This document shows, piece after piece, positions 39,724 through 57,966 of a DNA stretch of 64,000 nucleotides. Position 1 is the first letter of the stretch. Every line of letters starts with the position of its first letter. Source of the stretch: Gammaproteobacteria bacterium (lineage in GTDB: Bacteria > Pseudomonadota > Gammaproteobacteria > SZUA-152). The notes beneath the pieces are model-generated. The model was not told the origin of the DNA. It ran no database searches and saw only the letters and a program-made list of their open reading frames with translations. The stretch is from the NCBI GenBank assembly GCA_021648485.1, contig JAKISS010000001.1, positions 2,650 to 66,649 on the forward strand. The letters are read 5' to 3'. A program made the position numbers and the translations under genes.

Positions 39724-40218
39724 ATGAATCAGAATGAAGATCCGGTCAAAGACCCGGTGTGCGAAATGATGGTGAACCCGCAGGATAATGTGATTGAATA
39801 TCAGAAAATGTCTTTTGCGTTTTGCTCAAAGCAGTGCCAGGAACGTTTCCTGGCTAACCCGCATTTATATATCGGCATACCAGGCATTAAAGCACCTAAA
39901 CAGGAAGGGCGGGAAGTGATCAAGCGGCGCAGGATGCATCTGTCTCATACCTTGTCCCCGGATGAAATTACGCTGGTCAGTGAAGCATTACGGGCAATGA
40001 TGGGCATCAAGGATCTTGCGATTACGCAAGACACTGTCGAGATTACCTATGATCTTCTACAGGCCACATTGAAGCAGATTGAAGACAAACTGATTGAGAT
40101 TGGTATTCAATTGGGTGGCGGCTGGACAGAACGCCTGCAACGTGCGTTTTTACAGGAAAGTGAGGAATTGCAGGTCGAAAGTATGGAAGTAACGACAACC
40201 CCTCACTATCGGGTTTAA
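39724..40218 (+). CDS. YHS-domain protein with ferredoxin-like (HMA-like, no CxxC) C-terminal domain
   Basis: N-terminal 'DPVCEMMV...FAFCSKQCQERFLANPHLY'. SD 'AAGGAG' upstream. Confidence 0.75.
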   Translation: MNQNEDPVKDPVCEMMVNPQDNVIEYQKMSFAFCSKQCQERFLANPHLYIGIPGIKAPKQEGREVIKRRRMHLSHTLSPDEITLVSEALRAMMGIKDLAITQDTVEITYDLLQATLKQIEDKLIEIGIQLGGGWTERLQRAFLQESEELQVESMEVTTTPHYRV

Positions 40219-41393: not shown

Positions 41394-41876
41394 TTATTGT
41401 CGTTGGCGTTGCAAAGCTTCATTGTTGATGTCCGCCTGAATTTTTCGTGTTTCTTCAGGCCAGCGACTTTTTATGTAGGCAATAACCGCCCAGATATCGT
41501 CGTCACTGAGGGTGTCTCTCCAGGCTGGCATGTCACTTTTGTAATCATCTGGGGCATAGGGCGGTATCATTCCCAGTTTGGTGATACCGAACAGAAGCTC
41601 GTCAGCATGATGCCAGGTATGCCCGGTTTCATCATGGGGCGGAGCAGGTAATTTGCCGTCGGGTTTCCGTATTCGCCAGTTTTTCTGCCCTTCAAGATTG
41701 GCTCCGTGACACAATGAGCAAAAGCGTTTGTAGACAAGTTCACCGCGTTTTAGCTGTTCATTCTCGGTGTTTTCTGCCTGTGCAACCATTGGCACAACCA
41801 TTGTCATACATAATAAAGTCACGTACGCAGGGCAGCGCATGATTTTAAAAAACATATTTGAGTTTTCCTTGCGCAA
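41394..41876 (-). CDS. c-type cytochrome (class I, monoheme)
   Basis: Signal peptide and the heme motif 'CSLCHGANLEGQ'. Downstream 'HTWHHADELLFGITK...MPAW' provides the distal Met region. Confidence 0.8.
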   Translation of the reverse strand: MRKENSNMFFKIMRCPAYVTLLCMTMVVPMVAQAENTENEQLKRGELVYKRFCSLCHGANLEGQKNWRIRKPDGKLPAPPHDETGHTWHHADELLFGITKLGMIPPYAPDDYKSDMPAWRDTLSDDDIWAVIAYIKSRWPEETRKIQADINNEALQRQRQ

Positions 41877-41882
41877 TGGAAA

Positions 41883-42284
41883 TTAATAAATACCGTTTTC
41901 ACGCTGTAACCAGCGAATAAAGGGTAAAAGAACATCAACATCTTTTCGTGTTGCACCTGGCACCGGTGGCATGTCGCCAAAGCGCCAGTGATGAGCTTGT
42001 ACACCTTTGAGCACTGCCCGGTAAAATGTCGGATCAGCATGGTGTGACGGCTTGTAAAATCCGTGCATCAACGGCGGACCCTGAGGGGTGCCATTTCCCC
42101 ATTTTCCGTGACAGCTGGAACACAGGTCTCTAAATTTTTCCATGCCGACAACATATTTTTCGGGTACTTTCGGTGGGTTGTCAATGGAATATTTAGTGGC
42201 AGCGATCACGCCCGACAGGGGAGCCAACGATAAAATTGCCAATGTAAGCAAGCTACAAAATAAAAATCGGAATTTCATCATCAT
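41883..42284 (-). CDS. c-type cytochrome (class I), paralog of 33581-33979
   Basis: Signal peptide, 'CSSCHGKWGNG', and the shared 'GPPLMHGFYKPSHHADPTFYRAVLKGVQAHHWRFGDMPP'. Confidence 0.8.
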   Translation of the reverse strand: MMMKFRFLFCSLLTLAILSLAPLSGVIAATKYSIDNPPKVPEKYVVGMEKFRDLCSSCHGKWGNGTPQGPPLMHGFYKPSHHADPTFYRAVLKGVQAHHWRFGDMPPVPGATRKDVDVLLPFIRWLQRENGIY

Positions 42285-42868: not shown

Positions 42869-43061
42869 TTTTTAACCTGCGGGGTTTGCCCGCATGGCTG
42901 CGCTTGCGCGCGCGTGTTATGAATATTTCAGGAGAATCTGATGATTCTGTTCCATTTGGCAGCTTCCGGTCAGAAAATGACTGGCATTACATTATTTTCA
43001 GGATTGCTCACAGCATTTCATTATGCTGTGGGTTTTATCTGCTTCAAGGAAGGAGGGTGGT

Positions 43062-44384
43062 ATGCCGTTTAAGCAATTATTTTCTCTGTTGGCGATTAGT
43101 GGTTTGCTTATTGTCAGCAGTGTCAACGTTGTGCTTGCAGCATCGGAGCCAAAGCAACTGTCTCTGGCGGATGCGGTGGCCATTACCCTGACGGATCACC
43201 CAGGGCTGGCGGCGATGAAAACCCGTGCCGAAGCGCTCGCCGCAGTGCCTTCACAACAAGGTTCGCTGCCTGACCCCCGCTTGTCATTGAACATGCTGAA
43301 TTTACCTATCGATAGTTTTGATTTTAATCAGGAAGGCATGACTCAGTTACAGGTCGGATTCAGTCAGATGTTGCCATTTCCCGGCAAACTTGGGTTACGC
43401 GAGGCCGTTGCCGAGCATGAAAGCACAGCGGCCCGCTGGCAGGTTGAAGAATTACGTTTGAAGCTGGTGCGTGATGTGAAAACGGTGTGGTGGAATCTGT
43501 ATTTCACGGATCGTGCGCTGGAAATCGTGGCTCGAAACAGGGGGCTGTTGCGTCAGTTTGTCGATGTTGCACAAACTAAATACAAGGTGGGCAAGGGGCT
43601 GCAACAGGATGTTCTGCTTGCGCAACTGGAATTGTCCAAATTGCATGATCAAAGCATCAATTTGCAGGGGTTGCGGCGCAATCAGGTTGTTCAACTGAAT
43701 ACCTTGCTGGACCAGCCCACCAATAGCCCATTGCAATTACCCCAACGAATAACGGAAACGCTGGCGGAGATTACTGATGAACAAGGGTTACTCAGTTATG
43801 CCGCAAAAACCCGTCCTGTGCTGGCTGCGGCTCACAGTAAAATTGATGCAGCCCGTGCCCGCCTGGGTCTGGCAAAAAAGAGTTATTCCCCTGATTTTAC
43901 GTTAGGTGCTGCGTATGGTTATCGTGGCGGAGAAAATATCGATGGCAGCAGCCGTGATGATTTTCTCTCTGTGATGTTCAGTATGAATCTGCCTATTTAT
44001 GCCGGAGCCCGGCAAGACAAGGCTGTCGATCAGCGTACTTCTCAGGTATTGCAAAACCGGTATGAACTGGATGATGCCCACAGCAGGGTAGCGGCCGAGG
44101 TATCGCGCGCATTGGCTGACTATCAGCAATCCCGCGAACAGGTCAGCTTGTTTAAACAGGGCATTATTCCCCAGGCCGCGCAGACCGTTGCTTCTATGCT
44201 GGCGGCTTATCAGGTGAGCAAAGTGGATTTTCTGAATCTGGTGCGTGCGCAGATTACCTTATTCAATTACGAGACCCGTTACTGGAAGGCTTTGTCCCGG
44301 GGCAATCAGGCGCTGGCACGATTAGCTGCGGCTGTTGGCAAGCAAAGTTTGTTTGATGGCGATGAAAAAAATAACTGGAATTAG
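43062..44384 (+). CDS. cusC: TolC-family outer-membrane efflux protein (CusC-like)
   Basis: SD 'AAGGAGGG' and a signal peptide. Two OEP repeats with the coiled pattern typical of heavy-metal RND outer-membrane factors. First structural gene of an OMF-MFP-RND operon. Confidence 0.8.
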   Translation: MPFKQLFSLLAISGLLIVSSVNVVLAASEPKQLSLADAVAITLTDHPGLAAMKTRAEALAAVPSQQGSLPDPRLSLNMLNLPIDSFDFNQEGMTQLQVGFSQMLPFPGKLGLREAVAEHESTAARWQVEELRLKLVRDVKTVWWNLYFTDRALEIVARNRGLLRQFVDVAQTKYKVGKGLQQDVLLAQLELSKLHDQSINLQGLRRNQVVQLNTLLDQPTNSPLQLPQRITETLAEITDEQGLLSYAAKTRPVLAAAHSKIDAARARLGLAKKSYSPDFTLGAAYGYRGGENIDGSSRDDFLSVMFSMNLPIYAGARQDKAVDQRTSQVLQNRYELDDAHSRVAAEVSRALADYQQSREQVSLFKQGIIPQAAQTVASMLAAYQVSKVDFLNLVRAQITLFNYETRYWKALSRGNQALARLAAAVGKQSLFDGDEKNNWN

Positions 44385-44429
44385 TATTTTTAATGCTAAT
44401 TGATTAGCACGAAATTTTGAGGTGAATTC

Positions 44430-45929
44430 ATGAACAAACAAACTGTGATGGTCGCAATACTGGTTGCATTGGCCGTGGGTGGCGGTGGTGGATACTGGTT
44501 TGCATCACGTATGGCTCCTGATGCCATGAGCACGGCTGGCGATGCCAAACAGGAACGCAAAGCCCTGTTTTATCGAAATCCTATGAACCCGGCCATTACG
44601 TCTCCGGTGCCTGCGCAGGACGAGATGGGTATGGATTATATTCCGGTTTATGCGGACGACAATACACCCAAAGAGCGCAAGGCACTGTTTTACCGGAATC
44701 CCATGAACCCGGCTATTACCTCACCAGTACCCGCTCAGGATGAAATGGGCATGGATTATATTCCGGTTTATGCGGACGAGGACAATGCCGGAGATGCTCC
44801 CGCAGGTACGGTGAAAATTGATCCGGTTACTGTACAAAACATTGGTGTGCGTACGGCCATCGTAGAGCAACGTACCCTGAGTCGGCATATTCGTGCAGTG
44901 GGTCGGGTTGCGTACAACGAGGAACGTTTATCCCGTCTGCATCCTAAGACTGAGGGTTGGATCAAAGAGCTGCGCATTGACAAAACGGGTTCACCGGTCA
45001 AAAAAAATGACATCCTGTTAAGTATTTATGCGCCGCAACTGGTTGCCAGCCAGGAAGAATATCTGTTGGCAATGAAAAGCAAACAGATTTTGGCAGACAG
45101 TCCTTTCGACGATATTCGTCAGGGAGCCATTGATCTGGAGAAAACGGCACGGGAACGTTTGGAATTGCTGGATATGGCTGAGCACCAGATTCGAGAGTTG
45201 GAGCGCACGCACGAGATAAAAAAGTATCTGCATATTCATTCACCTTTTAACGGAATCGCAATAAAAATTGGAGCCCGTGAGGGACAGTACGTTACCCCCA
45301 AAACAGAATTATATATGTTGGCCGACCTGTCCAAAATATGGGTGTATGTTGATATTTACGAATATGAATTGCCCTGGATTACGGTGGGTGATCAGGTCGA
45401 GATGGAATTAACGGGTGTGCCTGGCAGAGTTTTCACAGGCCGTCTTGCCTATATTTATCCCTATGCAGAGGCCAGAACCCGCACGATCAGAGTGCGTCTG
45501 GTTTTTGATAACAAAGAGTTGTTGTTGAAACCCGATATGTTTGCCGAGGTCAGCATTGCCGCGAGTCGGCAGATTGCTGCCGTAGTGGTGCCCGCCGAAG
45601 CTGTGGTGCGCTCAGGGACTCGTGAACAGGTATTCGTGGTGCGCGGTGCCGGAAAATTTGAACCGCGTGAAGTCAAAATCGGTATCACTACCAGCGGTGT
45701 CACCCAGATACTGACCGGTCTGAAGGTTGGTGAAGAAGTAGTGACCTCCTCCCAGTTCCTTATTGATTCAGAGTCCAAGTTGCGTGAAGCGACCGCGAAA
45801 ATGATGGAGATACTGAATGCGGGGCAGGGTGATAACAACTCCGCAAGTGTATTTGATGATATGTCTATGGATGATATGTCTATGGATGATATGTCTATGG
45901 ATGATATGTCGCCGGAAAAAGCAAAATAG
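44430..45929 (+). CDS. cusB: RND periplasmic adaptor (CusB-like) with duplicated N-terminal tri-Met module and C-terminal (DDMSM)n tail
   Basis: Membrane-fusion-protein core (a 'barrel-sandwich' region 'VKKNDILLSIYAPQLV...', and a beta-barrel 'VPAEAVVRSGTREQVFV'). Positioned between the OMF and the RND pump. Confidence 0.85.
   Translation: MNKQTVMVAILVALAVGGGGGYWFASRMAPDAMSTAGDAKQERKALFYRNPMNPAITSPVPAQDEMGMDYIPVYADDNTPKERKALFYRNPMNPAITSPVPAQDEMGMDYIPVYADEDNAGDAPAGTVKIDPVTVQNIGVRTAIVEQRTLSRHIRAVGRVAYNEERLSRLHPKTEGWIKELRIDKTGSPVKKNDILLSIYAPQLVASQEEYLLAMKSKQILADSPFDDIRQGAIDLEKTARERLELLDMAEHQIRELERTHEIKKYLHIHSPFNGIAIKIGAREGQYVTPKTELYMLADLSKIWVYVDIYEYELPWITVGDQVEMELTGVPGRVFTGRLAYIYPYAEARTRTIRVRLVFDNKELLLKPDMFAEVSIAASRQIAAVVVPAEAVVRSGTREQVFVVRGAGKFEPREVKIGITTSGVTQILTGLKVGEEVVTSSQFLIDSESKLREATAKMMEILNAGQGDNNSASVFDDMSMDDMSMDDMSMDDMSPEKAK
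44553..44792 (+). repeat. 120-bp (40-codon) tandem duplication inside cusB-like gene
   Basis: Both copies encode an identical 35-aa 'ERKALFYRNPMNPAITSPVPAQDEMGMDYIPVYAD'. The DNA differs at 16 third-codon positions. Confidence 0.95.
45855..45910 (+). repeat. perfect 15-bp tandem repeat x3.7 (GATGATATGTCTATG) encoding (DDMSM)n
   Basis: Read directly. It lies at the extreme 3' end of the cusB-like gene. Confidence 0.95.
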
Positions 45930-45935
45930 GGGCAC

Positions 45936-48900
45936 ATGATGATTCAAAATATTATTAACGCCTCGTTGCGTGATAAATTCCTGGTACTGATTGCCACAGC
46001 ATTAATCGTCGTGGCCGGTATATTTGCCGTCAAAAACACACCACTGGATGCCATTCCGGATCTTTCTGATGTGCAGGTTATTGTCTTTACCGAATACCCG
46101 GGACAGTCACCGCAGGTTGTGGAAGATCAGGTGACCTATCCCTTGACCACAGCAATGCTGGCGGTACCCTCTGCCAAAGTGGTGCGTGGTTATTCTTTCT
46201 TTGGTTTTTCCTTTGTCTACATTATTTTTGAAGACGGTACTGATATGTACTGGGCCCGTTCGCGGGTGCTGGAGTATCTAAACTATGTTAGCTCCCGGTT
46301 ACCTGCCGGACTATCGCCTTCGCTGGGGCCGGATGCTACCGGTGTCGGTTGGATTTACGAATATGCCCTGGTGGATCGCACTGGCAAACATGACCTGGCA
46401 CAACTGCGTTCCTTGCAGGACTGGTATTTACGTTATCCCTTGCAAACAGTACAGGGTGTTTCCGAAGTGGCCTCGGTAGGCGGTTATGTCAAACAATATC
46501 AGGTGGAGGTTGACCCCAATGCTTTGTTAGCCTACGGCATTCCGTTGTCCAAAGTAAAATATGCTATTCAGCGTTCCAATAATGATGTAGGTGGCAAACT
46601 GGTAGAGATGGCCGAGACCGAATACATGGTGCGCGGCAAAGGCTACATTCGTTCCATTGCGGACCTGGAAGTTATTCCGGTGGGCGTTGATGCCAATGGC
46701 ACACCCATACGCCTGATGGATGTGGCGAACATCCAGATTGGTCCCGAATTACGGCGTGGTGTGGCAGAGCTTAATGGCGAAGGTGAAGTCGTCGGTGGCG
46801 TGGTGATTATGCGCTTCGGCGAAAATGCCTTGGCCACCATCGAACGGGTACGTGAAAAGCTGGAAGAACTGAAAAGCGGTTTGCCGGAAGGCGTAGAGAT
46901 TGTGCCGGTCTATGACCGTGGCGACCTCATCGAACGCGCAGTGAATAACCTGGCTGAGAAACTCATCGAAGAATCCATTGTAGTGAGTCTTATCTGCATC
47001 TTGTTTTTGTTGCATGTCCGTTCGGCGCTGGTGGCTGTTATTAGCTTGCCTGTAGGGATTCTAATGGCGTTTATCATCATGAAATGGCAAGGCATTAATG
47101 CCAACATCATGTCGCTCGGTGGTATTGCCATCGCCATCGGAGCCATGGTGGATGGTGCCATTGTGATGATTGAAAATGCCCATAAACACCTGGAACACGC
47201 AGGTAATAAAAAGGGCCGTGAACTGACCCTGCCCGAACGCTGGGAAGCGGTGGCCTCGGCCTCACGCGAAGTGGGCCCCGCGTTGTTTTTCTCACTATTG
47301 ATTATCACCGTATCCTTCCTGCCGGTATTTACGCTTCAAGCCCAGGAAGGGCGTTTGTTCGCACCGCTGGCGTTCACCAAAACCTATGCCATGGCAGCAG
47401 CAGCCATTCTTGCGATTACTCTGGTGCCGGTATTAATGGGCTATTTTATTCGCGGCAGGATCATGCCCGAAGCCAAAAACCCGGTGAATCGTTTTCTGCA
47501 TGCCATTCATTCGCCGACACTGAAAAGTGCCATTCAGTGGCGTTGGTTGACGCTGTTTGTGGCGGGAACATTGTTACTGGTAACGGCCTGGCCGGTGAAC
47601 AAACTTGGCAGTGAATTCATGCCGCCGCTGGATGAAGGTGACATCCTGTACATGCCCACCACCTATCCGGGATTGTCGATTACCAAGGCCAAGGAAATTT
47701 TGCAACAGACAGACAAAATCCTCTACACCTTTCCGGAAGTGCATCAGGTTTTCGGCAAAGCGGGGCGTGCTGAAACGGCTACCGACCCGGCACCGCTGGC
47801 GATGCTCGAAACCACCGTACGACTAAAGCCTCGGTCTGACTGGCCGAACCCGGACAAGACCACCAAGGAACTGATGGCCGAAATGGATGCCGCGATCAAA
47901 TTCCCTGGTGTCGCCAATGCCTGGACCATGCCGATCAAGACCCGCATTGACATGTTGTCCACGGGTATCAAAACACCGGTTGGTATCAAAGTCAGCGGAC
48001 CGGACCTCAACGTACTGGAAGAGGTGGCAGGTAATATTGAACGGGCGCTAAAAACCATGCCGGATACATTGTCCGCCTTTGGAGACAAAGCAGCGGGCGG
48101 TTATTACCTGGACTTTGATATCGACCGTGTTGCGGCGTCGCGTTACGGTCTTACTGTGGGTGACGTGCAGGACATTATTCAAAGTGCCATCGGTGGTATG
48201 AACGTCACGCAAACGGTAGAAGGACTGGAGCGTTATCCCGTTAATGTGCGTTATCCGCGTGAGCTGCGTGACAACATGGAACAGTTAAAGCGGGTATTGA
48301 TTCCCACACCCACGGGAACGCAGATTCCACTGGCGCTAGTGGCCGAATTGATATTACGACGCGGGCCACCTGCCATCAAAAGTGAAAACTCACGACCCAA
48401 TGCCTGGGTTTATGTGGACATCAAGACTTCGGATATTGGTGGTTATGTGGCCGATGCCAAAGAGGTGTTGAAAGCCCAGGTGAAAATTCCGGCGGGTTAC
48501 ACTCTGGTATGGTCCGGGCAGTTTGAGTACATGGAACGTGCTGCTGAACGTCTGCGTATCGTGGTGCCAGTGACACTGCTGGTGATCTTCTTGTTGTTGT
48601 ATCTCAACTTTCGCAACGTTTCGGAACCGTTGGTGGTTATGCTTTCCATTCCCTTCGGACTGATTGGTGGTTTTTGGCTGATTTACTGGCTGGGTTTCAA
48701 TATGTCAGTGGCGGTGGCAGTGGGCTTCATTGCCCTGGCGGGTGTAGCAGCGGAAATCGGCGTGCTGGTATTAACCTTTATTGATCATGAAATCGCGCGC
48801 CGCCGTCGCGACAAAGGAGCAGCGTTGGATGCAAAAGAAATCATGGAGGCAGTACATGCAGGTACCTCGGAACGTGTACGACCGATTGTGATGACGGCTA

Positions 48901-49106
48901 CGGCCATCATCGCCGGTTTGTTGCCCATTATGTGGGGCAGCGGCACGGGTTCCGGTGTCATGCAACGTATTGCTGCACCCATGGTGGGAGGTATGGCCAC
49001 CGTCACTATCCTAAGCCTGCTGGTGCTGCCAGTGATTTATGGTTTGGTTTTGCAGTTTCAGGAACGACAACTGCGACGACAAACTGCAAAAAACAATGTG
49101 GCATGA
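45936..49106 (+). CDS. cusA: heavy-metal efflux RND pump, CusA family (Cu(I)/Ag(I) type)
   Basis: 1056 aa with 12-TM RND topology. The TM4 motif 'AIGAMVDGAIVMIEN' (nt 47133-47177) fits the monovalent-cation HME pattern, and 'NAWTMPIKTRIDMLSTGIKTPVGIKV' is typical of CusA. Confidence 0.9.
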   Translation: MMIQNIINASLRDKFLVLIATALIVVAGIFAVKNTPLDAIPDLSDVQVIVFTEYPGQSPQVVEDQVTYPLTTAMLAVPSAKVVRGYSFFGFSFVYIIFEDGTDMYWARSRVLEYLNYVSSRLPAGLSPSLGPDATGVGWIYEYALVDRTGKHDLAQLRSLQDWYLRYPLQTVQGVSEVASVGGYVKQYQVEVDPNALLAYGIPLSKVKYAIQRSNNDVGGKLVEMAETEYMVRGKGYIRSIADLEVIPVGVDANGTPIRLMDVANIQIGPELRRGVAELNGEGEVVGGVVIMRFGENALATIERVREKLEELKSGLPEGVEIVPVYDRGDLIERAVNNLAEKLIEESIVVSLICILFLLHVRSALVAVISLPVGILMAFIIMKWQGINANIMSLGGIAIAIGAMVDGAIVMIENAHKHLEHAGNKKGRELTLPERWEAVASASREVGPALFFSLLIITVSFLPVFTLQAQEGRLFAPLAFTKTYAMAAAAILAITLVPVLMGYFIRGRIMPEAKNPVNRFLHAIHSPTLKSAIQWRWLTLFVAGTLLLVTAWPVNKLGSEFMPPLDEGDILYMPTTYPGLSITKAKEILQQTDKILYTFPEVHQVFGKAGRAETATDPAPLAMLETTVRLKPRSDWPNPDKTTKELMAEMDAAIKFPGVANAWTMPIKTRIDMLSTGIKTPVGIKVSGPDLNVLEEVAGNIERALKTMPDTLSAFGDKAAGGYYLDFDIDRVAASRYGLTVGDVQDIIQSAIGGMNVTQTVEGLERYPVNVRYPRELRDNMEQLKRVLIPTPTGTQIPLALVAELILRRGPPAIKSENSRPNAWVYVDIKTSDIGGYVADAKEVLKAQVKIPAGYTLVWSGQFEYMERAAERLRIVVPVTLLVIFLLLYLNFRNVSEPLVVMLSIPFGLIGGFWLIYWLGFNMSVAVAVGFIALAGVAAEIGVLVLTFIDHEIARRRRDKGAALDAKEIMEAVHAGTSERVRPIVMTATAIIAGLLPIMWGSGTGSGVMQRIAAPMVGGMATVTILSLLVLPVIYGLVLQFQERQLRRQTAKNNVA

Positions 49107-49272: not shown

Positions 49273-49782
49273 ATGAAAAAATTAACACTGATTTCGGTTA
49301 TTACCACTTTGCTGGTTTCCATGAGTGCTGTTGTTCAGGCATCGGAAGGTCACGACCATGGCCATGATGACGGTCACAGCAACATGAGTGGAATGAAACA
49401 TGATGATCATCATGATGGTCATAGCTCTGCGGGTCATGATGAAAAGGGCATGCCACACAAAAAGGGCGAGATGTTTCTGGTGAAAAAAGAAGTTGATGGT
49501 TACGATGTCAGCTTCCACATCATGAAAGCCAAAGCCGGTAAGGAAATGGGAGGCAGTCATGACTTTATGATCAAAGTGGAAAAAAATGGCAAGGCACTGG
49601 ACAATATCACCATGAATACCAAAGTAGTGCATCCTAATGGCAAAGAAGAAAGTAAAAAAGTCATGAAAATGGGTGACTGGTATATGGCAGGCTATGACCT
49701 TGGGCATGAAGGAAAACATCAGATGATGATTCTTTTTAAAACCAAAGATGGTCAAAAACATAAAGCCGGAATTTATTATTAA
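49273..49782 (+). CDS. secreted His-rich metal-binding protein
   Basis: Signal peptide, 'SEGHDHGHDDGHSNMSGMKHDDHHDGHSSAGHDEKGMPH', then a ~110-aa beta-rich domain. SD 'AGGAGAA' upstream. Confidence 0.65.
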   Translation: MKKLTLISVITTLLVSMSAVVQASEGHDHGHDDGHSNMSGMKHDDHHDGHSSAGHDEKGMPHKKGEMFLVKKEVDGYDVSFHIMKAKAGKEMGGSHDFMIKVEKNGKALDNITMNTKVVHPNGKEESKKVMKMGDWYMAGYDLGHEGKHQMMILFKTKDGQKHKAGIYY

Positions 49783-49855
49783 GCAAATAATTACATGAGT
49801 GCCAGGCAGCTCAGTTTTTGCGCTGCCTGATACCCTGTATTTTCAGGAGCAGTCC

Positions 49856-50182
49856 ATGAACTTTAAAAAAGTAACAGCGATTATCCGTTGTGAATCCTGT
49901 GAAAAAGTTGAGCAAAAATTACAAAAGCTCGGTGTGCATGGTTTCAGTATCAGCAAAGTAAAAGGTTATGGTGAATATGCTGACCTTTACAGCAATGACT
50001 GGCTGGTGAGTCATGCACGCATTGAGATATTTACTGAAGCCTCCAAGGCGGAAGAAATTGCTGAAGCCATTATGGAGGCCGCACATGTTGGCCTGGAAGG
50101 TGATGGCATTATTGCAGTGTTGCCGGTTGAAAAACTGTTTCGGATTCGTACCCGTAGTGAGTTTAAGCCTGGTGATGCGTGA
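49856..50182 (+). CDS. P-II (GlnB)-like signal-transduction protein with divergent T-loop
   Basis: 'VTAIIR', 'GVHGFSISKVKGYGE' and 'GDGIIAVLPVEKLFRIRT' align with the PII fold. The T-loop region is altered. SD 'AGGAG' before the ATG at 49856. Confidence 0.7.
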   Translation: MNFKKVTAIIRCESCEKVEQKLQKLGVHGFSISKVKGYGEYADLYSNDWLVSHARIEIFTEASKAEEIAEAIMEAAHVGLEGDGIIAVLPVEKLFRIRTRSEFKPGDA

Positions 50183-51193: not shown

Positions 51194-52522
51194 ATGTTGT
51201 TAACACGTATTTTTTATGCGGGTGTTTGCATTTATTGGCTGTTACCTATGGCTGCCGTGGCCGATGTCAGCACTTCTACCGGTGTTAGTCGTACCATTAC
51301 TGGCACTACAGGGGCGGATAAAATCGATCCGGCACTGCCTGCATTTATCAAACAGGTCTGGGCAGAAAGTCCCGCTGTGCAAGGGGCTCAGGCGGCAGTA
51401 GAAGCTGCACGGGCTCGTCGCGATGGGGCAGACAGGCCGTTGCACAATCCGTCACTGGGGCTGGATGCTGAGCGTACCGATATCAATACCAGCACCATTG
51501 GTTTGACCCAAACGCTGGACTGGAGTGACAAGCGAGGTGCGTTGGTCAATATTGCCAAACAGGAAGAGCAAGCCGTTCAGGCTGCCTTTCAGGAAGTCCG
51601 GCGCAGTACGGCACTGGAAGCGCTCAATGCGTTAGTGGATTTTTCCACGGCGCGTGAAATGCAGAAACTGGCGAAGCATCGCATGCAATTGATGCAGACG
51701 CTGGTGGACACGGCAACACAACGCCAGGCCGCAGGTGATATGCAGGCGCTGGATATGATATTGGCTCAGGTGGCGTACAGCGAGGCATTGATGACGCAGG
51801 CGGAGGCTGAAAGCGCATTGAGTGAAGCTGAGACGGCCTTGCAGGCTGTCAGTGGTTTGATGCAATCGCGGTCACAATCGTCATTACAATGGCCGTCATT
51901 GCCCGGTGCGCTCGCGTTACCTTCCGCACAACAAACCGAAAGCACGGCATTTGAAACCCTGCCAAGGCTGGCCATGTTGCGTAGCCGTGTGGAAGCGGCC
52001 AGGGCGCGAGTCAGTCTGGCACAGAAAACAGGACGTATTGATCCGACGCTCGGTATCCGGGCCGGTAAGGAAGACAGTGCAACATTGTTGGGACTGAGTT
52101 TGGAAATCCCGCTTTTTGTGCGCAACAGCTTCAAGGCAGAGGCGCGTGCTGCTTCTCATGAGGCCATCGTTGAAGAGCAGGCGTACCGTGATGCTTATCG
52201 ACGCGCCAGGGCTTATTTTGCCGGTGCGCTTGCCCGTTATCAAAATACCAGTCGTGCCTGGAGCGTCTGGTTGGCGGCAGGTCAACATGCCCAGCGTGAG
52301 CAAATGAGTTTGCTGAATCAACTGTGGCAGGTGGGTGAATTAAGTGTCACGGAGTATCTCATTCAGGCCAAACAAAATATCGATACACAAGAGGCTGCAA
52401 CCCGTTTGCTGGGTGAGGCCCGGCAGGCGCATTTCGCCTGGCTGGCGGCGTCCAATCAGGTTGAACACTGGTTGGGCCTGGCACAGCACGATATCGAAAC
52501 GAATTCCGGAGAATCAAAATGA
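51194..52522 (+). CDS. czcC: TolC-family outer-membrane efflux protein (CzcC-like)
   Basis: Signal peptide and two OEP repeats. Overlaps the adaptor gene by 4 nt. Confidence 0.8.
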   Translation: MLLTRIFYAGVCIYWLLPMAAVADVSTSTGVSRTITGTTGADKIDPALPAFIKQVWAESPAVQGAQAAVEAARARRDGADRPLHNPSLGLDAERTDINTSTIGLTQTLDWSDKRGALVNIAKQEEQAVQAAFQEVRRSTALEALNALVDFSTAREMQKLAKHRMQLMQTLVDTATQRQAAGDMQALDMILAQVAYSEALMTQAEAESALSEAETALQAVSGLMQSRSQSSLQWPSLPGALALPSAQQTESTAFETLPRLAMLRSRVEAARARVSLAQKTGRIDPTLGIRAGKEDSATLLGLSLEIPLFVRNSFKAEARAASHEAIVEEQAYRDAYRRARAYFAGALARYQNTSRAWSVWLAAGQHAQREQMSLLNQLWQVGELSVTEYLIQAKQNIDTQEAATRLLGEARQAHFAWLAASNQVEHWLGLAQHDIETNSGESK

Positions 52523-53853
52523 AACGCACATTATTTTTGCAGCATGCCGTTTATTGTTTGTTGTTGTTATCCAGTCTGGCGATGTCCAGCGTTGTTTTGG
52601 CTGAAGGAGATCATGACGATCTTGATGATTTTTCTGGCATTGAAATGGAAGATAGTCACGAAAGCCATGGTGATGAAGGTCATCAGCATCAAAAAGAAGG
52701 CCATGGCCATGAAGATGATGGCCATGAAGAAAAAGGGCATGACCATGGTGATCATGACGAGGGCGGTCATGATGAAAGTGGTCATGATGAAAGTGGTCAT
52801 GACGAAGGTGACGATGGTCACGGTCATGGCGAAGTTGCAAGCGACGCTGAATTGAATGATGTTCAGCGCCGTTTAGCAGGCGTTGAAACCATGGCTGTAA
52901 AACATCAGTCACTGGGTGATGCAATTACCGCACCTGGTGAGGCAATGCTGAATGCCTACCGTACCACCAGAGTAACGCCACGCACACCTTCTCAGGTGAC
53001 AGAGCGCCATGTGCGACTGGGTGATCATGTTAAAAAGGGTCAGCGGTTGGTAACGCTTTCCAGTGTGGAAATGGCTGAGGCACAGGGCGCACTGATGGAA
53101 GCTAATGTAGAACTGCGTCGTGTCACAAAACTGGGGCGAAAGGTGGTTTCTGAAAAACGCTTTGTGGCGGCACAAATTGCCTATCAGCTCGCGTATGCCA
53201 GAGTCAGTGCTTACGGTATGGCGAAAAAGCAAATTCAGTCTTTGCTGAAAACCGGGGATGCCACCCGTGCGACGGGTGAATTTCATCTGGTTTCATTACA
53301 GGATGGCACGGTAATCAGTGATGATTTTGTTGTGGGTGAATTAATTGATCCGGGTTATGTGTTAATGACCATCAGTGATGAGTCGGTGCTTTGGATCGAA
53401 GCTAGGTTAACTCCTGAAGATGCAGCACGCACTGTTCTGGGAGCAGTGGCTCGCGTTCAGGTGGGCAAACGCTGGATTGCAGGCAAGGTTGCACAGGCTA
53501 GCCATACCCTTGACGAGACGACACGTACGCTGGCAGTGCATATTGAAATTGCTAATCGCAATGAAGTTGTTCACCCCGGTCAGTTTGTTAGCGTTTTTAT
53601 TGAAGGCAATAAAAAACAGCAAGGTATTGCTGTGCCGATAGAAGCGGTATTACGTGGCCCTGATGGTGACTGGCAGGTGTTTGTGGAAACCGCACCGGGA
53701 CGTTTTGAGCCCAAAGAAATTACCGTGTTGAGCACCCTGGGTGACCAGATGTTGGTAGAAGGTATTGCTGAAGGCACCACCATCGTGAGCAAAGGTGCAT
53801 TCTTCGTGCAGTCCGAAATGGCCAAGGGCGGATTTGATCCGCATAACCATTAA
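52519..53853 (+). CDS. czcB: RND periplasmic adaptor (CzcB-like) with long His/Asp/Glu-rich N-terminal region
   Basis: 'EGDHDDLDD...HESHGDEGHQHQKEGHGHEDDGHEEKGHDHGDHDEGGHDESGHDESGHDEGDDGHGHGE' followed by an MFP core. Includes 15-bp repeats at 52765-52809. Confidence 0.85.
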   Translation: MKRTLFLQHAVYCLLLLSSLAMSSVVLAEGDHDDLDDFSGIEMEDSHESHGDEGHQHQKEGHGHEDDGHEEKGHDHGDHDEGGHDESGHDESGHDEGDDGHGHGEVASDAELNDVQRRLAGVETMAVKHQSLGDAITAPGEAMLNAYRTTRVTPRTPSQVTERHVRLGDHVKKGQRLVTLSSVEMAEAQGALMEANVELRRVTKLGRKVVSEKRFVAAQIAYQLAYARVSAYGMAKKQIQSLLKTGDATRATGEFHLVSLQDGTVISDDFVVGELIDPGYVLMTISDESVLWIEARLTPEDAARTVLGAVARVQVGKRWIAGKVAQASHTLDETTRTLAVHIEIANRNEVVHPGQFVSVFIEGNKKQQGIAVPIEAVLRGPDGDWQVFVETAPGRFEPKEITVLSTLGDQMLVEGIAEGTTIVSKGAFFVQSEMAKGGFDPHNH

Positions 53854-53880
53854 TCTACTGACTCAAGGAGAATAAACATC

Positions 53881-56800
53881 ATGTTAAATCGTTTAATCGA
53901 CTGGTCAGTTGCCAACCGTTTACTGGTTGTGATTGGCCTGCTGGCGCTAATGGCGTCGGCAACACTTATTATACCGAAACTGAATCTGGATGCATTTCCA
54001 GATGTGACTAATGTGCAGGTATCCATTAACACCGAAGCCCCTGGTCTGGGCGCAGAAGAAGTTGAGCAATTAATTACCTTTCCCATTGAGGCGGTAATGT
54101 ATGCGTTGCCGGATGTAGAGCAGGTGCGCTCCATATCAAAAACAGGTTTGTCAGGTATCACCGTGGTTTTCAAGGAAGGGAAAGATATTTATTTTGCCCG
54201 ACAGTTGGTTTTTGAACGTTTACAGTCGGCCAAAGAACTGATACCCGAAGGCGTTGGTACACCCGAAATCGGCCCGAATACGTCTGGACTGGGACAGGTC
54301 TACCAATATCTCATGGTGGCCGATGCAGAGTCCGGCCTTGATGCCATGGCATTGCGCAGCCTTAATGACTGGGTGGTCAAACTGTTACTGATGCCGGTAG
54401 ACGGCGTGACCGATGTTTTATCCTTCGGGGGTGATGTCCGGCAGTATCAGGTGAATTTGAATCCTTCCCGATTGCTTGCTTACGGCTTACGTCAGCAGGA
54501 TGTGATTGATGCTTTGGAAAACAATAACTCTAACGCGGGCGGCTGGTATATGGACCGTGGTCAGGAGCAGTTAGTTATTCGTGGCATTGGCTGGCTGAGC
54601 CATGATGAAAAAGGCTTAGAAGAGCTACGCCAGATTCCATTGAAAACGGTGGATGGTACCGTTGTTACCATCGCGCAGGTTGCCACGGTAGAGCTGGGTA
54701 GTGAAATACGCCAGGGTGCGGTCACGATGACACGTCGTGATGCTCAGGGGCAGCCGGAGGCATTGGGTGAAGTGGTTGCCGGTATTGTTTTGAAACGTAT
54801 GGGTTCAAATACCAAAAGTACTATTGACGGCATCAACAGTCGTATCGCATTGATCCAACAGGCTTTGCCAGAAGGTGTTCGATTCGAAGCATTTTATGAT
54901 CAGGCAGATTTAATTACGCAAGCAGTTAAAACGGTGGTCGATGCCTTATTGTTGGCGTTTGTTTTCATCGTTGTAGTGTTGGCGCTGTTTTTGATGAACC
55001 TGAGCGCGACGTTTCTGGTATTAATATCAATCCCGATCTCCATTGGCATCGCGTTGATGATCATGGCCTGGTTTGGATTGTCCGCAAACCTCATGTCATT
55101 GGGGGGAATAGCCGTGGCCATTGGCATGTTGGTGGACGGCTCGGTGGTTATGGTGGATAACATGTTCAAGCATCTGGCCCATCCCGATGCTGAACATGAC
55201 AAAGAACGCAGGGCACTGCTGAGTGCGGATGATGTTGATCCTCATGATGTCGTGCATGACCAAACCGGTATTGCCTTACGACTGCAAATTGCTGGCAAGG
55301 AAGTCGTGCGTCCCATATTTTTTGCGACCTCGATTATCCTCGTGGTGTTTTTGCCCCTGTTCAGTTTTGAAGGGGTAGAGGCAAAATTATTTCAACCCAT
55401 GGCCATCAGCATTATGTTGGCCATTGTGTCAGCGGTATTCGTTGCGCTCATCATTGTTCCGGCATTGGCGACCTACCTGTTTCGACATGGCATACGTGAA
55501 AGAGAAAGCCCTTTTTTAAAGCCGCTTGATACACTTTATCGTCGTGGTTTGCGTTGGGCATTGAGAAAAACCAAAGTGGTGGTGGGTTTTGCCTTGGTTT
55601 TGTTGATTGGCGCACTGGCTGTGGTACCGCTACTGGGTACAGAGTTTGTTCCGGAGCTGGAAGAAGGCACCATCAATCTGCGAGTTACTCTGGCACCGAC
55701 GGCCAGTCTGGACACAGCGCTGACCGTCGCACCCAAACTGGAAGCCATGCTGCTGGAATTTCCGGAAGTGATTTATGCATTGAGTCGCATCGGCAGACCT
55801 GAAATTGGTGGTGACCCGGAACCGGTCAATAATATCGAAATCTACATTGGCCTGAAACCCGTCAGCGAATGGACGAGTGCCGATAACCGGCAAGCCTTGC
55901 AAGGTTTGATGGAGCAGAAACTGGAACAACACCCCGGTTTGTTGTTGAATTTTTCTCAGCCCATTGCCACACGGGTTGATGAATTATTATCAGGTGTCAA
56001 AGCACAGCTTGCCATTAAACTGTTTGGACCGGATCTGGCAGTCCTTGCAGAGAAAGGGCAGGCCATCGAAAAAGTGATACAGGGCATTGATGGCGCGAAA
56101 GATGTGGCCATGGAGCAGATTGTAGGTGAAGCACAATTAGTGGTACGCCCGGACAGAAATCAACTGTCGCGTTACGGGTTGGCGGTGGGTGATGTGATGG
56201 CTCTCGTAAGCGATGGCCTGGGTGGACGTGCAGCCGGACAAATCATCAACGGTAATGAACGTTATGATATCTATGTTCGACTGGCGGAAGTCTATCGTGC
56301 CGACGCTAATGCCATTGCCAATTTGCGCTTGCAATCACCCACCGGACAATGGGTTCGTCTGGGCGATGTTGCACAAATCAGCATTGAATCCGGGCCGCCC
56401 CAGGTACGACGCGACGATGTGCAACGGCGTGTTGTCATTCAGGCCAATGTACAGGGACGCGACATGGGCAGTGTCGTTGCTGACATTCGAGCCGCCATTG
56501 ATACGCAAGTGTCCTTGCCAGCAGGGTATTCCGTGGACATTGGTGGGCAGTTCGAAAATCAGCAGCGCGCGCAAAAGCGCCTGAGCATGGTAGTCCCCCT
56601 GTCACTTGCCCTGATTGCTTTACTGTTATATTTTGCCTTCAAATCGGTAGGGCAGGCGATGCTGATTCTGGTCAACGTACCGCTTGCGGTTATTGGCGGA
56701 GTATTCTCACTGTACCTTTCCGGGCAATACCTTTCTGTACCCAGCTCCATTGGTTTTATTACCCTGTTTGGTGTTGCCGTACTCAACGGTGTTGTGATGG

Positions 56801-57084
56801 TAGAAAGTATCAACCAGCGTATTGCTGATGGACTTTCCATGGATGATGCTATCTTTAACGGAGCAACGTCACGCCTGCGCCCGGTGTTGATGACAGCGAT
56901 TACCTCCGCACTGGGTTTAATACCCATGTTGATGTCAACCGGTGTCGGCGCGGAAATCCAGAAACCACTGGCGACCGTTATTGTCGGGGGATTACTGACA
57001 GCAACATTCTTAACCCTGTTTGTGTTGCCGACGCTTTTTTCATGGTTTTCCAAAGGTAAATTCAGTGATATGAGAAAAGTATAA
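53881..57084 (+). CDS. czcA: heavy-metal efflux RND pump (CzcA/HME family, atypical TM4 motif)
   Basis: 1067 aa with RND topology. The TM4 motif is 'AIGMLVDGSVVMVDN' (nt 55117-55161). It is followed by a CDF gene. Confidence 0.85.
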   Translation: MLNRLIDWSVANRLLVVIGLLALMASATLIIPKLNLDAFPDVTNVQVSINTEAPGLGAEEVEQLITFPIEAVMYALPDVEQVRSISKTGLSGITVVFKEGKDIYFARQLVFERLQSAKELIPEGVGTPEIGPNTSGLGQVYQYLMVADAESGLDAMALRSLNDWVVKLLLMPVDGVTDVLSFGGDVRQYQVNLNPSRLLAYGLRQQDVIDALENNNSNAGGWYMDRGQEQLVIRGIGWLSHDEKGLEELRQIPLKTVDGTVVTIAQVATVELGSEIRQGAVTMTRRDAQGQPEALGEVVAGIVLKRMGSNTKSTIDGINSRIALIQQALPEGVRFEAFYDQADLITQAVKTVVDALLLAFVFIVVVLALFLMNLSATFLVLISIPISIGIALMIMAWFGLSANLMSLGGIAVAIGMLVDGSVVMVDNMFKHLAHPDAEHDKERRALLSADDVDPHDVVHDQTGIALRLQIAGKEVVRPIFFATSIILVVFLPLFSFEGVEAKLFQPMAISIMLAIVSAVFVALIIVPALATYLFRHGIRERESPFLKPLDTLYRRGLRWALRKTKVVVGFALVLLIGALAVVPLLGTEFVPELEEGTINLRVTLAPTASLDTALTVAPKLEAMLLEFPEVIYALSRIGRPEIGGDPEPVNNIEIYIGLKPVSEWTSADNRQALQGLMEQKLEQHPGLLLNFSQPIATRVDELLSGVKAQLAIKLFGPDLAVLAEKGQAIEKVIQGIDGAKDVAMEQIVGEAQLVVRPDRNQLSRYGLAVGDVMALVSDGLGGRAAGQIINGNERYDIYVRLAEVYRADANAIANLRLQSPTGQWVRLGDVAQISIESGPPQVRRDDVQRRVVIQANVQGRDMGSVVADIRAAIDTQVSLPAGYSVDIGGQFENQQRAQKRLSMVVPLSLALIALLLYFAFKSVGQAMLILVNVPLAVIGGVFSLYLSGQYLSVPSSIGFITLFGVAVLNGVVMVESINQRIADGLSMDDAIFNGATSRLRPVLMTAITSALGLIPMLMSTGVGAEIQKPLATVIVGGLLTATFLTLFVLPTLFSWFSKGKFSDMRKV

Positions 57085-57087
57085 ATT

Positions 57088-57966
57088 ATGGGGCATGAGC
57101 ATCATCACGATGTAGAAACCATGGGCGATCAGCGTTTGCTGATCGCCATTATCATTAACATGCTGCTGACACTGGCCCAGGTGGTTGGCGGTATTATTTC
57201 CGGCAGTTTGTCACTCATCGCCGATGCCTTGCACAACTTCAGTGATGCCAGCTCATTATTGATTGCCATGGTTGCGCGTAAAATTGGCCGACAACCGCCC
57301 GATGCCTTTAAAACCTTCGGCTACAAACGAGCCGAAGTGATTGCGGCTCTGATTAATCTGGTTACCCTGGTATTGATCGGGCTCTATCTCATTTACGAAG
57401 CACTATGGCGTTTTTACTCCCCACAAGAAATTGAAGGCTGGATAGTGGTTATTGTTGCCAGTGTTGCGCTGGTCATTGATGTGGCCACAGCGATGTTGAC
57501 GTACAGTATGTCAAAAAACAGCCTGAATATCCGTGCCGCCTTCTTGCATAACGTTTCTGATGCTTTGGCCTCTGTAGGAGTGATAGTGGCGGGCAGCCTT
57601 ATCTTACTCTATGGCTGGTACTGGACAGATACCGTGATGACACTGGCCATTGCAGGCTATGTTCTTTATCAGGCAGCCACCATGCTACCCCTGACCATAC
57701 ATATATTAATGCAAGGCACACCTGAAAACCTTACCATTGACGAAGTGATCAACGCCATGGAAAAAACGACAGGCGTGTGTAATGTGCACCATGTGCATGT
57801 CTGGCAGATTGATGAACATCAAATTGCATTGGAAGCACATGTCGTTATCACTGATTTCGCGCAAACGGAACAGGTCAAAAAAATATTGAAAACTGAACTT
57901 AAACAGCGCTTTTCCATCGCTCATTCCACGCTGGAATTTGAGGTTGTTCATTGCGAAGAATGTTGA
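57088..57966 (+). CDS. czcD: cation diffusion facilitator (CzcD/ZitB-type)
   Basis: N-terminal 'MGHEHHHD', six TM helices, 'SLIADALHNFSD' (the TM2 HxxxD site) and 'FLHNVSDAL' (TM5). There is a C-terminal cytoplasmic domain. Confidence 0.9.
   Translation: MGHEHHHDVETMGDQRLLIAIIINMLLTLAQVVGGIISGSLSLIADALHNFSDASSLLIAMVARKIGRQPPDAFKTFGYKRAEVIAALINLVTLVLIGLYLIYEALWRFYSPQEIEGWIVVIVASVALVIDVATAMLTYSMSKNSLNIRAAFLHNVSDALASVGVIVAGSLILLYGWYWTDTVMTLAIAGYVLYQAATMLPLTIHILMQGTPENLTIDEVINAMEKTTGVCNVHHVHVWQIDEHQIALEAHVVITDFAQTEQVKKILKTELKQRFSIAHSTLEFEVVHCEEC

What the first reader, a model, noticed from the sequence alone, without database searches (positions are those of the whole stretch)
44553..44792. In-gene 120-bp duplication in the Cus adaptor: 35 identical codons' worth of protein, 16 synonymous DNA differences, 0 non-synonymous
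The two tandem 40-codon units encode the same 'ERKALFYRNPMNPAITSPVPAQDEMGMDYIPVYAD'. Sixteen of the first 26 codons differ, and every difference is at a synonymous third position. The last 9 shared codons (ATGGATTATATTCCGGTTTATGCGGAC) are nucleotide-identical.

Each unit carries three Met residues spaced 14 and 2 apart (M..x13..MGM). This resembles the N-terminal three-Met Cu(I)/Ag(I) site reported for E. coli CusB. The pump's adaptor therefore appears to carry two such sites in tandem.

Near-saturated synonymous divergence with no amino-acid change implies an old duplication under very strong purifying selection on both copies. It could also reflect selection for DNA divergence that prevents recombinational loss. 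The identical 27-nt tail hints at local gene conversion.
Basis: seen in the sequence. Interest (0 to 1): 0.62.

Follow-up and report, generated by a model that had tools for sequence, protein, structure and literature searches.

The report
Doubled copper-binding module in CusB adaptor
A copper/silver efflux-pump adaptor protein carries two tandem copies of its small three-methionine metal-binding module; this is a real, old and widely conserved arrangement kept by very strong selection on the peptide, an under-described but unsurprising variant of a known system.

Summary
In the CusB-like gene (44430-45929, +), two 120-nt units start at 44553 and 44673. Each encodes the same 35 residues. They differ at 16 synonymous third positions and at no replacement site, and their last 27 nt are identical.

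It is not an assembly artefact. Independent assemblies and contigs from other sequencing runs carry the same two units without indels.

Unit 2 aligns directly, and unit 1 by identity, with the E. coli CusB N-terminal Cu(I)/Ag(I) site (M49/M64/M66). The neighbouring CusA-like pump keeps its own three-Met site.

Two modules are the norm in this clade: 66 of 80 species-representative loci and 101 of 119 top homologs. One or three modules are minorities.

Synonymous divergence between the window's units is saturated (dS about 1.8). That is at least four times the divergence from the closest relative. It is not more diverged than random codon choice predicts, so selection for DNA divergence is not needed.

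Across genomes the units evolve in concert, and copies are gained and lost by recombination. One close relative is a unit1/unit2 deletion chimera.

The identical tail is weak evidence for a short conversion tract (P about 0.01-0.02).

The arrangement appears undescribed in the searchable literature. Interest is moderate.

The parts
43023..44384 (+). Outer-membrane factor gene (CusC-like), first gene of the operon
   Evidence: Pfam OEP 2.2e-48; TolC/NodT-type NCBIfam hits below cutoff
44430..45929 (+). CusB-like periplasmic adaptor (membrane fusion protein), 499 aa, carrying the doubled module
   Evidence: Pfam HlyD_D23 6e-78 and the CusB hairpin domain. E. coli CusB structures 3.5e-44. TIGR01730 above cutoff; the CusB subfamily NF007303 is the best hit but below cutoff.
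44430..44507 (+). N-terminal hydrophobic signal/anchor segment (aa 1-26)
   Evidence: Sequence MNKQTVMVAILVALAVGGGGGYWFAS; AF2 predicts helix 3-26. Whether it is cleaved was not tested.
44553..44657 (+). Module 1 (aa 42-76), with putative ligands M52 (44583-44585), M66 (44625-44627) and M68 (44631-44633); followed by linker DNTPK (44658-44672)
   Evidence: unit HMM 87.5 bits
44673..44777 (+). Module 2 (aa 82-116), with putative ligands M92 (44703-44705), M106 (44745-44747) and M108 (44751-44753); followed by linker EDNAGDAPAG leading into the conserved adaptor body
   Evidence: This copy aligns with E. coli CusB residues 39-75, including M49/M64/M66.
44631..44659 (+).
   Evidence: In the single-module relative L004 the unit1/unit2 junction falls in this tail.
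45855..45910 (+). Perfect 15-nt x 3.7 repeat encoding the C-terminal (DDMSM)n Met/Asp-rich tail
   Evidence: Copy number ranges from 2 (P0005, P0006, P0010) to 8 (P0007) among close relatives, counting near-variants such as DDMNM. Analogous to the flexible C-terminal Ag+ site of SilB (PMC10407283).
45936..49106 (+). CusA-like heavy-metal RND pump
   Evidence: 1310 bits to E. coli CusA structures. Residues aligned with M573, M623 and M672 are all Met. TIGR00914 scores 1302 bits.

Best explanation
The feature is a tandem pair of CusB N-terminal metal-binding modules on the periplasmic adaptor of a Cus-type Cu(I)/Ag(I) RND efflux pump.

Each 35-residue module most likely binds one Cu(I) or Ag(I) through three methionine thioethers (PM...MGM) on a flexible arm between the membrane anchor and the adaptor body. 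It then hands the ion on towards the three-Met site of CusA. A protomer would carry two such sites, so a CusB hexamer would carry twelve instead of six, plus a Met-rich C-terminal tail.

The doubling is old and is the standard state of a large clade. The peptide is the most constrained part of the protein. Synonymous sites between the copies have therefore run to saturation while replacement sites have not moved.

The array also undergoes occasional unequal recombination or gene conversion. This changes copy number (1, 2 or 3), keeps the copies within a genome alike, and may explain the identical 27-29-nt tail here.

Shown: the repeat, its conservation, its homology to the CusB site, the selection pattern, the concerted evolution, and one natural deletion chimera. 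Inferred: metal binding by each module, and the functional benefit of two.
For: - **Repeat and counts:**
- **Not an artefact:** a 2037-nt contig from another run spans 44300-45100 with 71 substitutions and no gaps, and a second run bridges the unit junction. Independently assembled relatives L001-L003 have the same layout.
- **Homology to the CusB site:** for the alignment. PMC6235853 and PMC4446572 document the M21/M36/M38 site and the sufficiency of the N-terminal region.
- **Cus-type pump:**
- **Prevalence:** 66 loci with two modules, 4 with three, 10 with one; among top homologs 101, 10 and 8. The module occurs in 996 clusters at 50% identity, and 98 of the best 150 carry 2-3 copies. Cultured carriers include a plasmid of Methylomonas sp. 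EFPC1.
- **Constraint:** 15-16 of 28 core positions are invariant in each module across 66 proteins that are only about 65% identical overall. Modules identical to the window's occur in Sideroxydans proteins that are 56% identical overall.
- **Age:** paralogous dS of 1.84 against orthologous dS of 0.35-0.46 to L002; unit orthology.
- **Concerted evolution:** within-genome unit1-unit2 amino-acid differences average 1.49, against 3.38 between genomes, with 0 of 20,000 permutations reaching the observed value. Within-genome nucleotide identity ranges from 0.68 to 0.94.
- **Loss by recombination:** L004 has a unit-1 5' part joined to the unit-2 linker.
Against: - No biochemical data exist for this protein or its clade. 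Metal binding and stoichiometry rest on alignment of three Met residues to a site that is disordered in E. coli crystal structures.
- AlphaFold confidence for the modules is low (pLDDT 40-66), so nothing can be said about how the two modules sit relative to each other.
- The protein scores below NCBIfam's CusB subfamily cutoff (197.6 against 390).
- Gene conversion cannot be separated from parallel selection as the cause of within-genome similarity. Codon identity is 0.67 at shared derived residues and 0.62 at shared consensus residues.
- The conversion reading of the tail rests on P of about 0.01-0.02 and two informative sites against L002.
Confidence: 0.8

Rival explanations
1. Assembly or strain-mixing artefact: two strain variants of a single module were concatenated by the assembler.
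For: The window comes from a metagenome-type assembly. Contigs of the two closest runs (X1, X2) break inside the repeat, with no coverage over 44651-44812.
Against: A 2037-nt contig from run X3 spans the whole region with no indel, and a contig from X4 bridges the unit1/unit2 junction. Separately assembled relatives and isolates have the same 117-135-nt period. The sequences flanking the two units differ, which does not fit a linearised bubble.
Confidence: 0.01
2. A relatively recent duplication whose copies were driven apart at synonymous sites by selection against recombinational loss (selection for DNA divergence).
For: Identical 120-nt tandem repeats are deletion-prone, and a natural deletion chimera exists (L004). 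A few genomes show codon identity below the saturation baseline (L074 at 0.14, L052 at 0.24).
Against: The window's codon identity (10 of 26, with 11.4 expected; 0.48 in the core) sits at the random-draw baseline and does not fall below it. The mean within-genome identity of 0.59 is above the baseline of 0.45-0.48. Both units already existed, and were already diverged, before the split from L002. The longest identical stretch, the best recombination substrate, has been retained rather than removed.
Confidence: 0.05
3. The within-genome likeness of the two peptides is maintained by selection alone: both modules dock on the same co-evolving partner such as CusA or a chaperone. There is no DNA-level homogenisation, and the identical tail is chance.
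For: Both units share lineage-specific residues (for example PVFMQDE, FYRSPM, KDS) while differing at 13-23 synonymous sites. Codon identity at shared derived residues is no higher than at consensus residues (0.67 against 0.62). The post hoc P for the tail is only 0.01-0.02.
Against: Several genomes have units that are 0.91-0.94 identical in DNA, with the paralog as the nearest relative (L006, L021, L066, L068, L075). Copy number changes (1 to 3) and the L004 chimera show that recombination does act on the array.
Confidence: 0.15
4. One of the two modules is a functionless passenger, duplicated and not yet decayed.
For: In more distant subfamilies the first unit often lacks the first Met (31 '?G' cases; NTM in Methylomonas sp. 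EFPC1). This suggests that degeneration of one copy can occur.
Against: In the window both copies are intact after saturating synonymous divergence with zero replacements (P about 3e-11 under neutrality). Both modules show 15-16 invariant core positions across 66 homologs.
Confidence: 0.04

Closest known systems
E. coli CusB N-terminal region (CusB-NT, mature residues 1-61; ligands M21/M36/M38)
   Same: Same position in the protein: after the signal/anchor and before the adaptor body. Same motif skeleton, ERK-hydrophobic-aromatic-x-x-PM ... M-x-M-D-x-x-P-x-YAD. The three Mets align. It sits in the same operon context with a CusA that keeps its three-Met site. The function of the E. coli region is documented in PMC6235853 and PMC4446572.
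   Different: E. coli has one copy; here there are two, and one to three across the clade. The loop between the first Met and the MxM pair is one residue shorter. The sequence is far more conserved within this clade than between it and E. coli. No cusF is detectable in the 64-kb window.
SilB of the sil silver-resistance system (N-terminal site M55-F73 plus a flexible C-terminal Ag+ site)
   Same: An adaptor with more than one metal site per chain: an N-terminal Met site and a flexible Met-containing C-terminal tail (PMC10407283). The window protein also has a C-terminal Met-rich tail.
   Different: SilB's two sites are different in kind and lie at opposite ends. Here the N-terminal site itself is repeated in tandem, and the tail is a (DDMSM)n slippage repeat.
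SilB of Cupriavidus metallidurans CH34 with a C-terminal CusF-like domain
   Same: An example of extra metal-handling modules fused to a Cus/Sil adaptor (PMC4446572; PDB 5a4g matched).
   Different: The added element there is a folded CusF-type beta-barrel at the C-terminus. It is not a repeat of the N-terminal peptide module.
Tandem N-terminal metal-binding domains of P1B-type copper ATPases
   Same: A repeated metal-binding unit on a flexible arm of a copper exporter, with variable copy number between lineages (established knowledge; a review on these domains appears as PMC11970713).
   Different: An unrelated fold and chemistry (cytosolic ferredoxin-like CxxC domains, against a periplasmic Met-triad peptide), and a different transporter class.

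Membership tests
CusB-type Cu(I)/Ag(I) RND periplasmic adaptor | Membrane-fusion-protein body (barrel-sandwich, beta-barrel, CusB-type helical domain) homologous to CusB | tested here: met
   Pfam HlyD_D23 6e-78, HlyD_3, HlyD_D4. E. coli CusB structures 3.5e-44 over aa 76-458. TIGR01730 scores 142.7 bits against a cutoff of 94.9.
CusB-type Cu(I)/Ag(I) RND periplasmic adaptor | N-terminal three-methionine site aligned with E. coli M49/M64/M66 (mature M21/M36/M38) | tested here: met
   phmmer alignment: M92, M106 and M108 of unit 2 align with M49, M64 and M66. Unit 1 has the identical peptide.
CusB-type Cu(I)/Ag(I) RND periplasmic adaptor | Score above NCBIfam's curated cutoff for the CusB subfamily (NF007303) | tested here: not met
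   It is the best-scoring family, but at 197.6 bits against a cutoff of 390. The protein is CusB-like but outside the enterobacterial-type subfamily as NCBI delimits it.
CusB-type Cu(I)/Ag(I) RND periplasmic adaptor | Binds Cu(I)/Ag(I) and activates or feeds CusA | not testable with these tools
   Requires protein biochemistry and genetics.
CusCBA operon with a CusA-type pump | Gene order OMF-adaptor-RND, and a CusA periplasmic three-Met cluster (M573/M623/M672) | tested here: met
   Gene order. All three positions are Met in the alignment to 3t51_A.
Four-part CusCFBA system | A cusF metallochaperone gene in the operon | tested here: not met
   tblastn with E. coli CusF (query sequence written from memory) finds nothing in the 64-kb window at E <= 10, but finds cusF upstream in 10 related loci. 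Small flanking ORFs have no Pfam or NCBIfam hit.
Tandem repeats under concerted evolution | Copies within a genome are more alike than copies between genomes, with copy-number turnover | tested here: met
   1.49 against 3.38 amino-acid differences, with 0 of 20,000 permutations reaching the observed value. Copy number ranges 1-3. Deletion chimera L004.

The most novel reading that the evidence does not exclude
The two modules are not simply additive capacity. They would form an obligate pair, either an intramolecular relay (outer module captures, inner module delivers to CusA) or a shared multi-Met site. That pair would let this clade's pump collect periplasmic Cu(I) without a dedicated CusF. 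The protein-level co-variation of the two copies, despite saturated synonymous divergence, would then reflect co-evolution with a common docking surface rather than DNA homogenisation.
Probability: 0.12. Interest if true: 0.6.

Novelty: new variant of a known kind. Interest (0 to 1): 0.4.

Why it matters
The N-terminal arm of CusB is where the pump receives Cu(I)/Ag(I) and is switched on. It has been studied almost only in E. coli, where it is single and disordered.

A large environmental clade, from hydrothermal-vent, marine, iron-oxidising and methanotrophic bacteria, keeps two copies and sometimes three. There the arm is the most conserved part of the protein.

This offers a natural series (1, 2 or 3 modules) for testing how many sites the pump needs, and whether the arm acts as a relay. 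The extreme conservation points to a specific protein interface beyond the three Met ligands.

The module has no Pfam model, so the architecture is invisible in routine annotation.

For genome scanning, the case is a clean example that 'saturated dS, zero dN' in an in-gene repeat can be explained by ordinary purifying selection plus occasional recombination.

Tried and rejected
- **Assembly artefact.** Rejected from contigs of other runs and independent assemblies.
- **Selection for synonymous divergence.** Rejected because codon identity is at or above the random-draw baseline.
- **A nucleotide-level constraint on the 27-nt tail, such as an RNA element.** Rejected. The tail is not identical between units in the relatives. 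Per-position codon identity in the tail (0.33-0.75) is like the rest of the unit. There are no Rfam hits anywhere in the window and no tRNAs.
- **Doubling compensates for a missing CusF.** Not supported. cusF lies upstream in 10 related loci, including all four three-module loci.
- **Separating gene conversion from parallel selection by codon identity at shared derived residues.** Inconclusive (0.67 against 0.62).
- **Structure prediction of the full protein with a 66-sequence alignment.** The body is confident, but the modules have pLDDT 40-66 with only short LFY/IPV strand pairs. I did not run fold searches on it because the region of interest is low-confidence.
- **Pfam scan of the N-terminal 132 aa and of one unit at E <= 10.** No relevant family.
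- **Literature searches for a described doubling of the CusB/SilB N-terminal site, or for the motif itself.** Nothing found. The library covers open-access papers only.

Full report
**Observation**

The ORF at 44430-45929 (+) encodes a 499-residue protein. The 35-residue peptide ERKALFYRNPMNPAITSPVPAQDEMGMDYIPVYAD occurs twice, at nt 44553-44657 and 44673-44777, exactly 120 nt apart.

The two DNA copies differ at 16 positions. All are third-position synonymous changes and all lie in the first 26 codons. The last nine codons are identical, and the identity runs 2 nt further (29 nt). The sequences flanking the two units are unrelated. Tandem Repeats Finder finds the same array: period 120, 85% matches, no indels.

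Nei-Gojobori counting gives Sd = 16 over 23.3 synonymous sites and Nd = 0 over 81.7 non-synonymous sites. That is pS = 0.69 and dS about 1.84. If the 16 changes fell on sites at random, the chance that all are synonymous is about 3e-11 (my arithmetic on the counts).

**Is it real DNA?**

Yes. A 2037-nt contig from an unrelated public hydrothermal-vent run covers 44300-45100 with 71 substitutions and no gap. A contig from another run bridges the unit1/unit2 junction.

Species-representative genomes assembled by other groups carry the same two-unit layout with periods of 117-135 nt, mostly 120. So do cultured isolates, including a plasmid of Methylomonas sp. EFPC1.

**What the gene is**

It lies between an outer-membrane factor gene (43023-44384) and an RND pump gene (45936-49106).

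The pump scores 1310 bits against E. coli CusA structures. It has Met at the positions of M573, M623 and M672, the periplasmic three-Met site.

The adaptor body matches E. coli CusB structures at 3.5e-44. In that alignment unit 2 lies on CusB residues 39-75, with M92/M106/M108 on M49/M64/M66. These are M21/M36/M38 in mature numbering, the N-terminal Cu(I)/Ag(I) site. That site receives metal from CusF, and on its own it is sufficient for binding and partial resistance (PMC6235853; PMC4446572).

NCBIfam ranks the CusB subfamily first, but below its cutoff (197.6 against 390). The general adaptor model passes. The protein therefore works like CusB and belongs to the wider CusB-like group, but not to the enterobacterial-type subfamily as curated. 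No Pfam model covers the module.

**How widespread is the doubling?**

I built an HMM from the units and counted modules:

| Set | One module | Two modules | Three modules |
|---|---|---|---|
| 119 best full-length homologs | 8 | 101 | 10 |
| 80 species-representative loci | 10 (some truncated) | 66 | 4 |

The loci span uncultured vent and marine Gammaproteobacteria, Methylococcales, Motiliproteus, Zetaproteobacteria and Sideroxydans/Gallionella.

A search of 1.84 billion cluster representatives with one 40-residue unit finds 996 proteins at E <= 0.001. Of the best 150, 98 have two or three modules. These include a second subfamily with the motif YYRNPMGLPDTSPVPKKDSMGMDYIPVY and with wider spacing.

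**Constraint**

In a 66-protein alignment with about 65% mean identity to the window protein, 15-16 of the 28 core positions of each module are invariant. About a quarter of positions are invariant elsewhere. Sideroxydans proteins only 56% identical overall carry modules identical to the window's.

Against close relatives, module omega is 0.004-0.04 and body omega is 0.04-0.07.

Zero replacements in the 28-residue core is common: 17 of 51 within-genome pairs. Six of those, the window among them, also have 10 or more synonymous codon differences.

Identity over all 35 residues is unique to the window. It owes something to a single CCC>GCC (P>A) change in unit 1.

**Age**

In the closest relative L002 (93% identical protein), unit 1 differs from the window's unit 1 at 10 nt, and unit 2 from unit 2 at 5 nt. 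Cross comparisons differ at 16-21 nt. Both units therefore predate that split.

Orthologous dS to L002 is 0.35 for the modules and 0.46 for the body, against 1.84 between the two units. Many lineages also share position-specific signatures at the unit starts: RKPL in unit 1 and KKVL or RKAL in unit 2.

**Selection for DNA divergence?**

Not needed. In the first 26 codons, 10 are identical, where independent draws from local codon usage predict 11.4. Across 43 two-module genomes, codon identity at shared residues averages 0.59, against a saturation baseline of 0.45-0.48. The window sits at 0.48. The copies are as different as saturation makes them, not more.

**Concerted evolution and turnover**

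Under a single old duplication followed by independent evolution, unit 1 of a genome should resemble its own unit 2 no more than it resembles unit 2 of any other genome. It does resemble its own more: 1.49 against 3.38 core differences, and none of 20,000 permutations reached the observed value.

Lineage-specific residues appear in both copies, for example FYRSPM, PVFMQDE and KDS. Within-genome nucleotide identity ranges continuously from 0.68 to 0.94. In several genomes the paralog is the nearest unit at the DNA level.

Copy number varies from 1 to 3.

The single-module relative L004 is nested next to L002. It has a unit-1-type 5' part (through codon 31) joined to the unit-2-type linker. That is the product of a 120-nt deletion by recombination inside the shared tail.

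Whether within-genome likeness comes from conversion or from parallel selection could not be separated. Codon identity is 0.67 at shared derived residues and 0.62 at shared consensus residues.

**The identical tail**

- The probability that all nine tail codons match under independent codon draws is 0.001.
- Allowing for any run of this length anywhere in the unit, it is 0.01-0.02.
- Relatives do not share the feature.
- At two informative sites (codons 31 and 34), both window units share one state while L002's units share or keep another.
- Identical runs of 27 nt or more occur in 17 of 51 pairs.

This is compatible with a short conversion tract, but it is not strong evidence.

**Mechanism (inferred)**

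Each module is predicted only as a short strand pair (LFY with IPV) that would bring the PM methionine near the MGM pair, at low confidence (pLDDT 40-66). This is consistent with the disorder of this region in E. coli crystal structures.

The likely picture is two Met-triad sites in series on a flexible arm, plus a Met/Asp-rich C-terminal tail. The tail resembles the flexible C-terminal Ag+ site of SilB (PMC10407283). Together they would raise capture capacity or form a relay to CusA.

No cusF is detectable in the window. However, cusF lies upstream in ten related loci, including all four three-module loci. Extra modules therefore do not simply replace CusF.

**Novelty**

I found no description of a tandemly repeated CusB/SilB N-terminal site in the searchable literature. 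The sequences are abundant in databases under the generic name 'efflux RND transporter periplasmic adaptor subunit'.

I rate it a new variant of a known kind: a repeat-number variant of a known metal-binding arm, with ordinary evolutionary dynamics. Interest is moderate.

Noticed in passing
window 45855-45910: A perfect 15-nt x 3.7 tandem repeat encodes the C-terminal tail DDMSMDDMSMDDMSMDDMS of the adaptor. Relatives more than 88% identical carry 2 to 8 copies, counting near-variants (DDMNM, DDMDM), so it behaves as a slippage-prone Met/Asp-rich tail. It is reminiscent of the flexible C-terminal Ag+ site of SilB.
   Followed up: partly
L004 3124-3290 (JAKIUF010000069.1): A single-module close relative is a chimera: the unit-1 5' part is joined to the unit-2 linker. 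This indicates a natural 120-nt deletion by recombination within the shared tail.
   Followed up: yes
window 51194-57966: A second heavy-metal RND operon (OMF 51194-52522, adaptor 52519-53853, RND 53881-57084), followed by a cation-diffusion-facilitator gene (57088-57966). Its adaptor has a long His/Asp/Glu-rich N-terminal region with short repeats (HDESGHDESGHDEG). This is the divalent-metal counterpart of the Met modules.
   Followed up: partly
window 49273-49782: A 169-aa secreted protein just downstream of cusA has a His/Met-rich N-terminal stretch (SEGHDHGHDDGHSNMSGMKHDDHHDGH...). It has no Pfam or NCBIfam match and is a candidate periplasmic metal-binding protein. It is followed by a P-II-like gene at 49799-50182.
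   Followed up: partly
L066, L068, L071, L075 (about 1000-1600 in each locus): All four three-module loci, and six two-module loci, have a CusF-like gene just upstream of the operon. None is found in the window (the query was E. coli CusF written from memory). These loci are phylogenetically clustered, so this is not an independent correlation.
   Followed up: partly
P0134 (519 aa; protein): One representative carries a module near the N-terminus (aa 45) and a second near the C-terminus (aa 449), instead of in tandem.
   Followed up: no
L081 5887-7323 (Methylomonas sp. EFPC1 plasmid NZ_CP070495.1): A cultured methanotroph carries a two-module adaptor on a 70-kb plasmid. Its first module has NTM instead of NPM and a Glu in the IPV strand, so the first copy is diverging. 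In the other subfamily many first units lack the first Met.
   Followed up: partly
window 39724-40218 and 41394-42284 (-): A YHS-domain protein and two c-type cytochrome genes lie just upstream of the operon. This fits a copper-handling neighbourhood.
   Followed up: no
L074 496-720; L052 3118-3342: Two genomes have unit pairs with codon identity well below the saturation baseline (0.14 and 0.24, against about 0.45). This may be chance among 43 genomes, or the only hint of synonymous over-dispersion.
   Followed up: no
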